From Mytilus edulis (taxonomy: Eukaryota), in the NCBI RefSeq assembly GCF_963676685.1, contig NC_092350.1:71424001-71488000 (forward strand): DNA of 64,000 bases. The letters run 5' to 3'. Positions 18,001 to 48,000 of this stretch are shown piece by piece. Position 1 is the stretch's first letter. Every line of letters starts with the position of its first letter. The position numbers are program-made.

Positions 18001-21000
18001 ACTGGGCCTGTCCATGTATGCAAGACATTATCACTTAGACTTAAATAGTTTAACTCATTTGCCATGAAACCTAAGCTGGGTATTTCAGAGTTCATGTAGT
18101 TGGACTTAAATAAAACTTTTTTCAGTTTTCCTGGCACAGGAAATGCAGATATGTTTTTCCAAATTTCAAACAAGGGAAGTTCATTAAAAAAAAAGTTGTT
18201 AATTAAATTAATTGTAACATTCTCCTCTCTAAGAGGACATTCCTCTACATAAGAGTTGAACACATTATGAGGAGAAAAATTATCCGAAATTTCTAGTGAT
18301 GTAATTGGCATAAACTGAAGATCAAGCACATATTTCCCTAAAGAAAAAATGTTGTCGCCTACATCCGCACTTGTTAAGGACGGAGGCAAATATTGTACCA
18401 TACCGAATTCTATTCTCTGAATACGGTTTCCAGCGGCCTCGAATCTTTCAAGTGACGTATTTTTTAAATTCCAAATATGGGAAATATTCAGTACTGTAGG
18501 CATTCCGAAAATACTATGAATATTGTTAACTTTAAGGATTTTAATTGCCGAGTATTGCAAGTCAGTGGTTATATTCTCAAGCGTTTCGAATCTCAAACAT
18601 GTATTTAAAGACACATCAAGGTTGGATATATTTCTTAATATCGCAAACGTTCCTTTGAAAATATGTTGTATTTTGCATTTGGATAAATTCAAATGAGTTA
18701 TTTGAGGCAAGAACACAAATGTTTTCTTTGTTAGTATAGTCATTTTGCAATTTCCTGTAATACCAGATAGATCTATACCTGTCAGTTTTTTTAAATTTGA
18801 AAATTTCTCGTCGAGAATTGCAATTTTGTCTACAATATAATCTATTGACAGTAATTCTAGTGACCGAAGTTTCCATAAATCTGGCACAAATGAGGTGTTG
18901 ACATTTCTTTTTAAATTCAAGCTCTTCAAGTTTTCAAGAAAATTAAAAGCTGAAATTTCAAACGACTTATTTTCATATTTCAAATCATTGTTGCTGAGAT
19001 TCAACGATATCAAATTTTGGAGTCCTTTGAACGAGTTTTTTCTTAAATAGCTTATTCTATTTAAAGACAAATCCAAAGTCGTTAGTAAAGAACTGTCTTT
19101 GAAAATCCCATCTTCTATTCTACTGATATTATTGTTTTGGAGAAACAATTTTTGAAGATTGTGCGGTAGCTTAGGTATACGAAGTAGTTCTTTTCCTGAA
19201 CAATCCGCTATAATATTTCCTGAACGAGGGACGTTTTGGCATCGACAAGAACTAGCGAAGTGACATGATTTCCATTCCTTTATCTCATGGAGTATTACAT
19301 GTTTGCAACTAATAAGTAATAAAAAGGCCGTAACAAGGATGTAAGGAAGGTTCATGTTCCCTGCAGAGAAAATAGGTAGTTATTATATTTCAGACTGACT
19401 TAGAAATGAAATGCAATTGGCCGTTTCAGAATCTAATGGACTATCGGTCATTTCATTGTTCGTACCCCAAAATGAAAATAACGTCACGACATTGGTTGAA
19501 TTGTTAGGACGTTTTCAACCAATTACGACGTTTTGGTGTACATTTTTGAAAATATTACCCAGAATGCATTATATTCTGAAACGGCGAATTGCTTAATGAT
19601 GGGTAATATACTGAAAACTGAAATTCACTGAAAAAAAGCAAGATAAACTAAATTATCATAAAATTTGTGCTAATGAGATAATTTCCCACCTTGCTGTTGT
19701 TAGATTATGTTTCATTTTAGTTAAAATACCTCATCAAAGATGCAAGGCTTATAATTGGTTACCTGAGACATGCGCACGGTTCGTCTGTATAAGACTCATT
19801 GGTAGCAAAATCGGATACAAAGTTGAAGAGCACAAGAAATCAAAATTTCAAAAAGATGTGACTTATACGAATATAGAAATATATGAAAGTGTTAGAAAAT
19901 TCAAATATTTTGAAACATTTGACATTTTTTAAACTCTAGACTTACAGAAAAAAAACATTAATGATATTTCAGATTAATTAAGTGTTGACAATTAGGTAGG
20001 CCATATACTCGGCGAGGAAATGTTCACCAGTAGTGGCATCGAACCGATCTCGAATCTCGGAAGTGTTTTGATATATGTCCTAGTACATTGTCTGTTGCTG
20101 TTAGATCTTTAATAGGCGGTGTTTATTTTATTCTAATTTTTTTTCAGTTGTCAAAACTTAGTAGCGCTGGTTTATACAGTTGTGAACCAATGTAACAAAG
20201 ACAACTATAATGTCAAAACCAACTATAATTTTTATTTGGACATGCCGCCTTTAATTGCAGTTGTCAAAACTTAATAGCGCGGGTTTATGCAGTTGTGAAC
20301 CAATCATACAAAGACAACTTAAATTTCAAAACCAAATTATTTAAATTCGTATTTGGACGATACAAATAATATTTAGAACCGACAGTCATTGACAAGGTGT
20401 TAAACTACAAAAGACACAAACATTCATTTCAAAATTAAATGTGTTTTGTGAGTATTGCACTGTACCTTTTTTGCGGCCGAGCACTTTTGATTTGACTAAC
20501 TCCTGCATAACCGAGTATCGTTGTGCTTCGTTATTATCGTTGTGTCCAGTTAAATAGTCTTTTGGGTATTAACCTTTACCAAATTGTTTTGTGTGCTTCT
20601 GTAATACGGAGTTAACTAATTATGAAAGTTCTCACCTGAATCTGAGTGTATGAAAGTACTAACTTGTATTTGAGTGTATTTAAGTACTCACTTGTATCTA
20701 AGTGTATCAAGGTACTCATCTGTATCTGAGAGTATGACAGTACTTATTTGTATTTGAATGCTTCGTGAGTATTTCGTTTTTGATATTGATTTCAACTGAA
20801 TAAAGTTGCAGCATTGCATACCAGCATTAGTTAGATTTAATTGTTTCATACAAAATTAGTTAAGTCTTTCTCCCCATGATACGATTTTCTAAAAATAAAC
20901 AAATAAATACTTACACATGATACCAGTATCCAAAGAATAACAAAATAACACGCACACTTCTATAGTAATATAAAGTTACCAAACCCGGAACAAGATGTTT

Positions 21001-45000: not shown

Positions 45001-48000
45001 GGACGTAGAATCAAACGATATTTCTTCATAATTCAAATTGTTGTTGCTGAGATCTAAGTAGAGTAAATTGTGTAGTCCTTTAAATGATTGTTTTCTTATT
45101 TGTTTTATTCTATTAAAAGACAAATCCAAGGACTTCAGCAAATTGTTTTCCTCGAAAATACCATCTTTTATTATACTGATGTAATTTCTTTGGAGAGATA
45201 AATATTGAACAACGTTCGGCATCCTTGGAATACAGAATAGGTTTCTGCCAGCACAATTTGCTACAAGTAACTTTGAACCGGGAACTGTTATGCAGACACA
45301 AGAACTAGCAAATGGACATGCCTTCTGTGCATAGACTCCTGGATTTCCACAACATACTAGTAACACACAAACAGGAACAAAGCTGTTGATGAGATTTATT
45401 TTCGCTGCAAACAAAAACAACATTTATTAACAACAAAAATCTGGTACATTGGGATTGTTCCTTGTTTGATGTTGTAAATTACTGTTTAAAAACAAGTAGT
45501 CTTTACCTCAGGAATAAATAACCTATGCTATATTTTAAAAACCTCAATTCTTTTATACTTCTTATTTTATTATTTGGCTTTTTTTTAAAGATATTTGATC
45601 GTCGTTGATAAGGTTTTTGCATTGATGATCAGACTCGTAAGTATCTGTTGCCTTCATGCCGAGTTAAGAAAATTAGTTTTCAAAGTACTAATCCATCTCG
45701 TTTTTGTGAGTTTTCGACTGTTATTGTTTGTTGCAGGATGGAGACAGCTTTTTTGTGTGCAATCATGATCATGTTATTTAAGTAAGATTCGATTAAATTG
45801 AATGACATCGCTGAACAAATGTTAAAAAAAACTCGTAAATGACAGAAAGTAATGTTACAGTATTGAAAAAAATCCCATTAGTATCAGAAGATCAAAATAC
45901 AACATTTAATATCTCTCAAATTGCTTAACATATTTGTTAATTTTGAAACAAATAATACTCACACATCATGAAGTCAATTGTATCAAATAACTACAACTAA
46001 AGTAAAGCGTGTGTCATTTAATCGTGAGTGAATTGGAGGGACAAAGTTTTCAACAAAAAATTACTTATTAATATCAAAATCAAAAGTTCAAAAATGAACG
46101 AAACGGAAAGGACAAAGTTTTTAAAATGGAATGAAATGTTATAAAATGACATGTTGTAATAGGAACGAAACCAAAGTCTAACATTTAACAAAAAATAAGC
46201 TCAAACTTTGCATAAACGGAAGGAAATGATAGCACGGTATGATTAATAAATGAAAATTTGTGTATATAATATTAGATAAATTATGAAATAAAATTATTCA
46301 AATACAAAATGATTTGTATAAAACAGAAGCAAAAGGTTGTATGTGAAGTTAATGGCCGGTTCGTTATTCAATATTCAATATCCAATCTGATGTTAGTTTG
46401 ATTTTGATTTTGAATTAATTTAGTTGAAAGCAATAAAATTTAGATGTTCGATAACATTAATACTAAAGTACATGTAGCATGATAGTAATATACAGTCCGC
46501 CAAAAGTTAAGCACCACCTATTTATATTGCATCGATTTTTTTAATTTAAAAATTCAGTTTATCCTCGAAAAAAAAGAAAATATTCATGTAGCAATTTTGC
46601 TAACATAAACCATAGACAAACCATAAAGTTAAGTTTGGTCACTTATGTAGGTTCTATGCAAATGGATTTTACGTTCCTAGAAATTGTGAAAATCACACAA
46701 ATCAGAAACGGAATTTAAGTTTCACTTTGATTTTATTTTTTTACAACAATCAATCGCCCATTATCATTAAAAGTCTCTAAAATTTATCTTTTGTTTGTTC
46801 GGCAAATTTAATGTCAAAAGGATGTGTGAACACCTCATTTCCGGTACAGTTCCATAACACGGCGTCTTATACTCTGTACAAGCCTTCTGAACTTTAGTTT
46901 AGCAAATTTATTCCATTCAGCAACCATTGGCCCTTTTAAATCGTCAAGATTTTGCAAACTTTAGGTTGATCTATGCGATTGATATTTCTGCCAATGGCAT
47001 CCCAAACATATTCGAAAGGTTTCATGACTGGAGACATGGAAGGCCAAAAGATAGTGCCAATGGCTACTTGCTCTTTGTACTCGGTTACGATCATTGTCCT
47101 GTGTGGTCTAGCGTTATTTTTCATGTACAAGGATCTTGACGCAAGTGTAGGATCATCAAAATGAGGGACTTCAATGTTTCTAAGCACCAAATCCCCGTAT
47201 GTTAGTCTGTTCATGTTACCCTGATCAATATGCATACCCATCTTACAACAGTATGAGAAGAAATCCCTTACAGTAACACCATCAGCAACAACTGCAGACG
47301 TTGGGCAAATGTTGTAATGGTTATGGGCAGTATTATTTCCCCGCCAAACTCGTATTCTGCCGTATATTGGTCGTAACAGAAACCGAGTCTTATCTGATAA
47401 TTGAATATTTTGCCAGCTTCTCATGTTCCAGCTTCGGTGGTCATTGGCCCGTTGAAACCTGATTTTACGGTACCTGACTGTTAGGGCAGGTCATTTGACA
47501 ACGCGACATGCTCTTAGCTAGATCTAAGAAGTTGACGGACCAATGCTCGAACACTAACACAACCACCTGGGGTATAAGCTGTAGGGCAGGAGTAAATGTA
47601 TTAGCTTTAGCACGACCAATAAGCAGTCTGTCATCGCGATAGTTACCTAAACGGAGTCTTCCTGAACTTGGTCTATCATTTAAAGTTCCTGTGTCAATAT
47701 GATTTTGTAAAAATCTGACAATAACGGTCTGATTAACAATGACATGGTTACCTATGCTCCTATTGCACCTACCGGCATTTGACATGTAAATAACTTGTCA
47801 ACGTTCGGTCACAGATAACTTAAGCCTTGCCATACTTCACAGTGACTTGGTGAATATCAGGCTTTAAAGATATATCTTTGATCGGTAATAATCTATGTTT
47901 CAAAAAGGAAAATAGTTGTACTTAACGGTTATAATTTGTGGATAACTAGTACTTGAAGGGGTCAAATAAAGATTTATGGCATCCATTGTTTTCTATTTTA

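What the first reader, a model, noticed from the sequence alone, without database searches (positions are those of the whole stretch)
19361..45969. Hidden conserved exon 1 contributing only ATG-T, missed by the ORF track
Four paralogs carry ATGT|GT(A/G)AGT upstream (20915-18, 30442-45, 37640-43, 45963-66), and all five have a phase-1 acceptor at the start of the signal peptide. Every join is in frame, and in TLR-D it is required to give a signal peptide. Intron lengths differ (1554, 1736, 1184 and 558 bp) but the position is fixed. The genes are therefore probably two-exon and the true promoters lie further upstream.
Basis: partly seen in the sequence, partly recalled or inferred. Interest (0 to 1): 0.7.

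Follow-up and report, generated by a model that had tools for sequence, protein, structure and literature searches.

The report
Four-base first exon in mussel TLRs
A tandem cluster of mussel Toll-like receptor genes starts each coding sequence with a tiny upstream exon that supplies only ATG plus one T, a real but ordinary gene-structure detail that public gene models of related mussels already contain.

Summary
The window is mussel DNA (Mytilus, most likely M. edulis; not human). It holds five Toll-like receptor copies, all on the minus strand.

ATGT|GTRAGT lies 558-1736 nt upstream of four copies. There are 5 matches in the window against 0.43 expected, and 0 of 100 shuffles reach 5. All five copies carry a pyrimidine-tract/AG acceptor at the same phase-1 position.

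The two-exon reading is supported:
- The intact copies diverge at dS 0.82-0.95, and their upstream regions no longer align, yet the donor 11-mer survives.
- The copy at 33898-36455 has no other start codon ahead of its signal-peptide core.
- Of 14 public Mytilus models that reach this region, 10 carry Trp at the split codon (T|GG). One of them, P0021, is 98% identical to the copy at 16791-19360.

The fifth motif match (25612-25621) is chance. The fifth copy lacks exon 1 because it is a 5'-truncated duplicate. No transcript data could be examined. Promoter positions remain inferred. The feature is already present in public annotation, so interest is low.

The parts
45963..45966 (-). Copy D: coding part of exon 1 (ATG + T). 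A second in-frame ATG lies directly upstream at 45967-45969. The donor GTGAGTA follows.
45405..45962 (-). Copy D: phase-1 GT-AG intron, 558 nt.
42841..45404 (-). Copy D: exon 2 with an intact TLR coding sequence (LRR, transmembrane stretch, TIR), stop codon included. The split codon is T|CG (Ser).
37640..37643 (-).
36456..37639 (-). Copy C: phase-1 GT-AG intron, 1184 nt. It contains a ~115-nt dispersed repeat at 36812-36925.
33898..36455 (-). Copy C: exon 2 with an intact TLR coding sequence, stop codon included. The split codon is T|GG (Trp). There is no alternative ATG ahead of the signal-peptide core.
30442..30445 (-). Copy B: coding part of exon 1 (ATG + T), followed by the donor GTAAGTA.
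28706..30441 (-). Copy B: phase-1 GT-AG intron, 1736 nt.
26134..28705 (-). Copy B: exon 2 of a pseudogene. It has an in-frame stop at 28512-28514, and the homology to A runs through four reading-frame segments. The split codon would be T|GT (Cys).
20915..20918 (-). Copy A: coding part of exon 1 (ATG + T), followed by the donor GTAAGTA.
19361..20914 (-). Copy A: phase-1 GT-AG intron, 1554 nt. It contains a 28-nt tandem repeat at 20621-20757.
16791..19360 (-). Copy A: exon 2 with an intact TLR coding sequence, stop codon included. The split codon is T|GG (Trp). The public model P0021 (98% identical) starts M-W and then continues with this exon's residues.
4188..6772 (-). Copy E: exon-2 homologue only, and a pseudogene (in-frame stop at 6075-6077 and two frame changes). 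The acceptor AG is at 6773-6774. No exon 1 exists, because the copy begins inside the intron.
25612..25621 (-). Fifth ATGTGTAAGT match, in the 3' flank of B. The motif is not kept at the homologous place in the 3' flank of A. Taken as chance and not part of the feature.
37692..37697 (-). Copy C: TATA-like hexamer starting 54 nt before the ATG, with TCAGTT (initiator-like) at 37667-37662. This is an inferred core promoter and would imply an exon 1 of roughly 26 nt.
   Evidence: inference; background rate of such a hexamer in that zone is 14%
20967..20972 (-). Copy A: TATA-like hexamer starting 54 nt before the ATG, with a YYANWYY match 22 nt before the ATG. This is an inferred core promoter.
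   Evidence: inference

Best explanation
These are two-coding-exon Toll-like receptor genes of a mussel.

Transcription starts a short distance upstream of the ATGT. Exon 1 carries a short 5' untranslated stretch, the start codon and one further T. A standard GT-AG intron of 0.56-1.7 kb in phase 1 is then removed. The T joins the first two bases of exon 2 to make codon 2: Trp in A and C, Ser in D, Cys in the pseudogene B. The signal peptide and the whole receptor (LRR ectodomain, membrane span, TIR domain) are encoded by exon 2.

Copies A, C and D are working genes of this form. B keeps the structure but is a decayed pseudogene. E is a recent duplicate that begins inside the intron. It therefore never had exon 1, and it is also decayed.

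Shown here: the splice-site sequences, the in-frame joins, their conservation against a saturated neutral background, and agreement with public gene models. Inferred: that these sites are the ones used in vivo, the transcription start and the promoter.
For: - The motif is enriched and strand-specific: 5 matches against 0.43 expected, all on the gene strand.
- All five copies have a pyrimidine tract plus AG at the equivalent codon. The open frames close 7-20 codons upstream of it.
- A, C and D have dS 0.82-0.95 and dN/dS 0.25-0.27. Their upstream regions do not align otherwise.
- The 4-nt candidate is the only one shared by the four upstream regions.
- C needs it: its first internal ATG leaves no hydrophobic core.
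- Public models: 8 of the 22 examined start M..W at the junction, and 2 more have W there. P0021 is 98% identical to A over 76% of its length and starts M-W followed by the residues of A's exon 2.
- LRR and TIR domains are confirmed in A, C and D.
- The lack of exon 1 in E is explained by a duplication breakpoint at 8285, matching 30217 inside B's intron.
Against: - No RNA evidence was available. All support from databases comes from predicted gene models, and these may share evidence or copy one another by homology.
- A, B, D and E each have an in-frame ATG in or just before exon 2 that would also give a hydrophobic N-terminus.
- Three public models start inside exon 2 (P0002, P0012, P0017) and one reads Arg at the junction (P0020).
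- The only public models found for C and D are N-terminally truncated (P0001, 652 aa; P0013, 571 aa) and carry no exon 1.
- A and C have other in-frame ATG...GTRAGT candidates upstream.
- Conservation of promoter-like motifs is not significant: 9-28% of controls do as well. TATA-like hexamers are present in only 2 of the 4 upstream regions.
Confidence: 0.85

Rival explanations
1. The genes are single-exon genes. Transcription starts inside what is here called the intron, and translation begins at the in-frame ATG in or just before exon 2. The upstream ATGTGTRAGT would then be something else, for example a regulatory element.
For: A, B, D and E have such ATGs, at 19355, 28724, 45423 and 6791, and each is followed by a hydrophobic core. 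Public model P0017 starts at an ATG inside the signal peptide. A passage in a paper on Manila clam reports one exon for its TLR4, TLR5 and TLR13 genes (PMC9720247).
Against: C has no usable ATG, yet it is intact and under purifying selection. Ten of the 14 public models that reach this region have Trp at the junction, which the unspliced frame does not encode in this window. Of the 22 models examined, none starts at the intron-side ATGs upstream of the acceptor (MHIFF-type, MLFLF-type), although P0017 does start at an ATG inside exon 2. The sequence just upstream of exon 2 looks like an acceptor (pyrimidine tract plus AG) in all five copies.
Confidence: 0.08
2. The acceptor is real, but the exon joined to it in vivo is a different or additional upstream exon. 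Possibilities are alternative first exons, further non-coding 5' exons, or exons of a neighbouring gene.
For: A has 2 and C has 3 other in-frame ATG...GTRAGT candidates within 3 kb. Public model P0005 joins unrelated upstream exons at the same junction with Trp, and P0015 has a different upstream peptide ending in W. P0007 has a longer exon-1 peptide (MHKMW).
Against: The alternatives are each found in one copy only, whereas the 4-nt exon is common to all four. Eight models from four species start directly at M..W.
Confidence: 0.06
3. The four motif matches are a chance pattern or part of a dispersed repeat, and have nothing to do with the receptors.
For: One of the five matches (25612-25621) does look like chance. 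The DNA is AT-rich, at 27-36% GC.
Against: 0 of 100 shuffles reach 5 matches. All matches are on the gene strand. Four sit 558-1736 nt upstream of a receptor frame in the one phase that fits. The flanks of the four sites share no repeat.
Confidence: 0.01

Closest known systems
Public gene models of Mytilus TLRs (named 'toll-like receptor 4', 'TLR13' or 'unnamed protein product' by their sources): P0003, P0004, P0006, P0007, P0009, P0010, P0011, P0021
   Same: They belong to the same receptor clade, at 60-98% identity to A, C or D. They have the same N-terminal build: Met (sometimes preceded by one to three more residues), then Trp, then the residues that exon 2 encodes here. P0021 is 98% identical to A.
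   Different: They are predictions from other assemblies or species, and I could not see their DNA or exon tables. For C and D only truncated models were found (P0001, P0013). In the window, D has Ser and B has Cys at the split codon, not Trp.
Rodent Tlr7, whose exon 2 carries 154 bp of 5' untranslated region plus 3 bp of coding sequence (PMC3848458, passage read)
   Same: It is a Toll-like receptor gene in which an upstream exon supplies essentially only the start codon and one large exon encodes nearly all of the protein.
   Different: Three coding bases place that intron in phase 0, whereas here four bases place it in phase 1. Tlr7 has a further non-coding exon. The mussel proteins are not close to TLR7: vertebrate hits are 22-28% identical and named TLR13, 21, 4, 7 and 8. 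Common descent of the intron is not shown.
Single-exon (intronless) TLR genes reported for bivalves, e.g. Manila clam TLR4, TLR5 and TLR13 (PMC9720247, passage read)
   Same: They have a long uninterrupted coding exon, belong to tandemly expanded families, and have the same domain order.
   Different: Here a 4-nt coding exon precedes the long exon. Whether the clam models miss a similar exon was not examined.

Membership tests
Toll-like receptor (type I membrane receptor: LRR ectodomain, one membrane span, TIR domain) | Leucine-rich repeat ectodomain | tested here: met
   LRR_8 scores E 1e-30 to 7e-32 in A, C and D, with 3-5 matched stretches each.
Toll-like receptor (type I membrane receptor: LRR ectodomain, one membrane span, TIR domain) | C-terminal cytoplasmic TIR domain | tested here: met
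   PF01582 TIR scores E 9e-19, 2e-17 and 3e-17 at residues ~710-813 of A, C and D.
Toll-like receptor (type I membrane receptor: LRR ectodomain, one membrane span, TIR domain) | Single membrane span between the LRR and TIR parts | tested here: inconclusive
   A hydrophobic stretch followed by basic residues is visible in the translations, just before the TIR match. No transmembrane predictor was run.
Toll-like receptor (type I membrane receptor: LRR ectodomain, one membrane span, TIR domain) | N-terminal signal peptide | tested here: inconclusive
   A hydrophobic core is encoded at the start of exon 2, with best 9-residue hydropathy 2.2-3.1. No signal-peptide predictor was available, and the joined N-terminus was not submitted to any tool.
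Standard (U2-type) GT-AG spliceosomal intron, phase 1 | Donor matching GTRAGT directly after the exon | tested here: met
   GTAAGTA in three copies and GTGAGTA in one.
Standard (U2-type) GT-AG spliceosomal intron, phase 1 | Pyrimidine tract followed by AG at the acceptor | tested here: met
   Present in all five copies.
Standard (U2-type) GT-AG spliceosomal intron, phase 1 | The join keeps the reading frame | tested here: met
   Four coding bases plus two make codon 2, and the frame of exon 2 was verified by translation.
Standard (U2-type) GT-AG spliceosomal intron, phase 1 | The junction is observed in RNA | not testable with these tools
   No transcript or read collection for this organism was on hand. 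The only indirect support is Trp at the junction in 10 public protein models.
Start-codon-only 5' coding exon as in vertebrate TLR7 | The upstream exon supplies only the start codon | tested here: met
   Four coding bases here. Rodent Tlr7 exon 2 supplies 3 bp (PMC3848458).
Start-codon-only 5' coding exon as in vertebrate TLR7 | Same intron position and phase, as homology of the intron would require | tested here: not met
   The intron is in phase 1 here. Three coding bases in Tlr7 exon 2 imply phase 0. The two work alike, but this is not shown to be the same intron.

The most novel reading that the evidence does not exclude
The four donors and five acceptors in this same-strand array all share phase 1, so any exon 1 could in principle be spliced to any downstream exon 2. 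Read-through transcripts could then place one receptor body under a neighbour's promoter. That would be cluster-level promoter swapping within an expanded immune-receptor family. A hint in this direction is the public model P0005, which joins foreign upstream exons at this same acceptor with Trp at the junction. Nothing here excludes this reading, and nothing here shows it.
Probability: 0.04. Interest if true: 0.45.

Novelty: already known. Interest (0 to 1): 0.15.

Why it matters
The value is practical rather than conceptual. A plain ORF scan, and some public models, give these receptors a wrong or missing N-terminus. P0001 (652 aa) and P0013 (571 aa) are truncated, and P0002 and P0012 lack the signal peptide. 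That distorts counts of intact versus broken immune receptors in the much-expanded bivalve TLR families. It also puts the promoters 0.6-1.7 kb away from where they really are.

Knowing the 4-nt exon has two further uses. It lets copies C and D be modelled as full-length receptors. It also identifies E as a duplicate that was non-functional from the start because it lacks exon 1. Reports of 'single-exon' bivalve TLRs may hide similar tiny first exons. That is an inference and was not tested.

Tried and rejected
- A generic acceptor pattern of my own matched only 3 of the 5 acceptors and was not enriched: 4 matches against 1.07 expected, with 3 of 100 shuffles reaching 4. I dropped it.
- Multiple alignment of 300 nt upstream of the five motif sites showed nothing convincing beyond the motif.
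- Shared k-mers upstream of the four ATGs include a TTTTATAT-like block at -100 to -112. They are no more frequent than in random intergenic sets, where 9%, 10% and 28% of 300 controls do as well. I therefore claim no conserved promoter block.
- A search for an exon 1 of copy E found no site with fewer than 2 mismatches in the 10 kb upstream, and none at a homologous place.
- The fifth motif match was rejected as chance.
What the current annotation of this very chromosome gives for A, C and D therefore stayed unchecked.
- The joined exon 1 + exon 2 proteins were not searched, aligned or folded. Only exon-2 translations were used. The 4-nt exon is too short to search.
- Paper searches for a description of this exon in mussel or bivalve TLRs found none. 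Passages read in PMC2275738, PMC4346834 and PMC4807771 held nothing relevant. One look-up failed on a term format and was not repeated. Supplementary files were not seen.
- Rfam found no RNA family in the window.
- Pfam found nothing in seven other small ORFs.
- No eukaryotic genome or transcript collection was available. Orthologous DNA of other Mytilus species could not be compared.
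Full report
**What the window is.** The window is AT-rich, at 27-36% GC. It carries five homologous long open frames on the minus strand. Exon-2 translations of three of them hit Toll-like receptors of Mytilus species at 60-99% identity. Two database entries that the tool marks as the window's own (P0013, P0029) sit on a contig of the same length as entries named Mytilus edulis. The DNA is therefore mussel, most likely M. edulis, and not human. Pfam confirms LRR and TIR domains in the three intact copies.

I name the copies by their order along the minus strand:
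- D: exon 2 at 42841-45404
- B: 26134-28705
- A: 16791-19360
- E: 4188-6772

A tblastn search with A shows that A, C and D are uninterrupted. B runs through four frame segments and has an in-frame stop. E has two frame changes and an in-frame stop. B and E therefore look like pseudogenes, unless these lesions are assembly errors.

**The observation.** The minus strand reads ATGT followed by GTAAGTA at 20918-20915, 30445-30442 and 37643-37640, and by GTGAGTA at 45966-45963. ATGTGTRAGT occurs 5 times in the window, always on the gene strand. Shuffles expect 0.43, and 0 of 100 shuffles reach 5.

All five copies have a pyrimidine tract and AG at the equivalent position, two bases before the first full codon of the signal-peptide region. 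The unspliced frames close only 7-20 codons further upstream. The intron lengths (1554, 1736, 1184 and 558 nt) and the in-frame joins check out. The split codon is T|GG in A and C, T|GT in B and T|CG in D.

It lies in the 3' flank of B, a region 71% identical to the 3' flank of A. The motif is not kept there in A, so I treat it as a chance match.

**Is it a real exon?** Four independent arguments say yes.

1. *Conservation against the background.* A, C and D differ by dS 0.82-0.95, with dN/dS 0.25-0.27. Unconstrained sequence should therefore be scrambled, and it is. The regions upstream of the four genes give no BLASTN match to each other apart from short dispersed repeats, and a multiple alignment shows nothing but the motif. 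The 11-mer ATGTGTRAGTA nevertheless survives in all four.

2. *Uniqueness.* I listed every in-frame ATG...GTRAGT candidate in phase 1 within 3 kb upstream. A has two others, C has three, and D has a tandem ATG one codon upstream. Only the 4-nt exon is shared by all four.

3. *Need.* In C the first in-frame ATG of the unspliced frame comes after the hydrophobic core and leaves an N-terminus with no such core (hydropathy 0.46 against 2.18). The gene is nonetheless intact and constrained.

4. *Public models.* I examined 22 Mytilus TLR proteins from the searches.
   - Eight begin M..W directly before the residue that corresponds to the first full codon of exon 2: P0003 and P0007 (M. californianus), P0004 and P0021 (M. 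edulis), P0006 (M. trossulus), and P0009-P0011 (M. coruscus).
   - Two more have W at that junction behind other sequence: P0005, a fused model, and P0015, a partial model from M. galloprovincialis.
   - One reads R there (P0020, a scrambled model).
   - Three start inside exon 2 (P0002, P0012, P0017).
   - Six are truncated far inside (P0001, P0008, P0013, P0014, P0019, P0029).
   - Two belong to a more distant clade and cannot be placed (P0016, P0018).

   So 10 of the 14 models that reach this region carry Trp where the unspliced frame of the window reads Gly or Ala. That is what a T-ending upstream exon joined to GG produces. P0021 is 98% identical to A and starts M-W followed by A's exon-2 residues.

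These are predicted models. Some may rest on shared evidence or on one another, and I could not see their exon tables or any RNA. The joined protein was never searched or folded.

**What speaks against it.** A, B, D and E also have an in-frame ATG in or just before exon 2 that would give a workable hydrophobic N-terminus. For those copies, sequence alone does not force the spliced start. Some public models do start inside exon 2. For C and D, the two copies where the exon would matter most, the only public models found are truncated and show no exon 1 (P0001, 652 aa; P0013, 571 aa).

**The fifth copy.** E lacks exon 1 for a clear reason. Window 1203-8285 matches 22352-30217 at 82-92% identity, in order. 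So E together with its 3' flank is a recent segmental duplicate of B. The upstream breakpoint (8285, matching 30217) lies inside the intron, about 225 nt short of B's exon 1. A 199-nt repeat also found at 40138-40333 sits at the breakpoint. No site with fewer than two mismatches to the motif exists in the 10 kb upstream of E. E therefore never had a start codon of this type.

**How it most likely works.** A promoter upstream of the ATGT drives a transcript whose first exon holds a short leader, ATG and one T. A standard GT-AG intron in phase 1 is removed, and exon 2 supplies the rest of codon 2 and the whole receptor.

The promoter is inferred only. A and C both have a TATA-like hexamer starting exactly 54 nt before the ATG and an initiator-like match 22-24 nt before it, which would make exon 1 only about 26 nt long. 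B and D have neither. Such a hexamer occurs in that zone at 14% of random positions. Shared upstream k-mers are not significant.

**Comparison with what is known.** The same N-terminal build is already present in public mussel gene models, so this is not new knowledge at the level of annotation. I found no paper that describes it. Supplements were closed.

The nearest described analogue is rodent Tlr7, whose exon 2 carries 154 bp of leader and 3 bp of coding sequence (PMC3848458, passage). It follows the same principle, but three bases mean phase 0 rather than phase 1, and the proteins are only distantly related. The two work alike without being shown to share the intron by descent. A paper on Manila clam reports one exon for several TLR types (PMC9720247, passage). 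Whether such models miss a tiny first exon was not tested.

**Verdict.** The promoter part is inferred only. The feature is an ordinary gene-structure detail already captured in public models of this family. Its practical value is in repairing truncated models of C and D and in classifying E. Interest is low.

Noticed in passing
window 1203-8285 versus 22352-30217: Copy E with ~3 kb of its 3' flank is a recent segmental duplicate of copy B (82-92% identity, colinear). It begins inside the intron and so lacks exon 1. A 199-nt repeat (8287-8485, also at 40138-40333, 87% identical) sits at the breakpoint.
   Followed up: partly
window 26134-28705 and 4188-6772: B and E carry different disabling lesions. 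B has an in-frame stop at 28512-28514 and three frame changes. E has a stop at 6075-6077 and two frame changes. Each seems to have decayed on its own, unless these are assembly errors.
   Followed up: partly
window 16208-16788 versus 25575-26131, and on to 8499 versus 21357: The 3' flank and the intergenic DNA after A are colinear with those after B at 64-80% identity. This points to an older tandem duplication unit that spanned a gene body plus the spacer to the next gene.
   Followed up: no
window 20621-20757: A 28-nt tandem repeat (4.9 copies) lies inside A's intron. On the gene strand its unit contains a donor-like CAAGTGAGTAC, and one copy is an exact GTGAGT with an in-frame ATG before it.
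   Followed up: no
window 7383-7507, 29312-29436, 36812-36925: A dispersed repeat of ~115-125 nt is present in the introns of E and B, and in the opposite orientation in the intron of C (72-75% identity).
   Followed up: no
window 4191-4565 and 26137-26433: The C-terminal (TIR) parts of E and B are 87-89% identical to A at the protein level. The ectodomains are only 63-66% identical. This could reflect strong constraint or gene conversion on the signalling domain.
   Followed up: no
window 46936-47797, minus strand: Two adjoining open frames of 184 and 110 aa lie just upstream of D's exon 1. From memory the first looks like a decayed Tc1/mariner-type transposase, but Pfam gave no match at E <= 0.001.
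   Followed up: partly
window 50457-51549 and 62956-63159: Satellite-like tandem repeats with periods of 128-263, 161 and 86 nt.
   Followed up: no
public proteins P0001, P0013, P0002, P0012, P0005: Public models of close relatives are often defective at the N-terminus. P0001 (99% identical to C) and P0013 (identical to part of D) start far inside. P0002 and P0012 start after the signal peptide. P0005 is fused to unrelated upstream exons at the same junction.
   Followed up: partly
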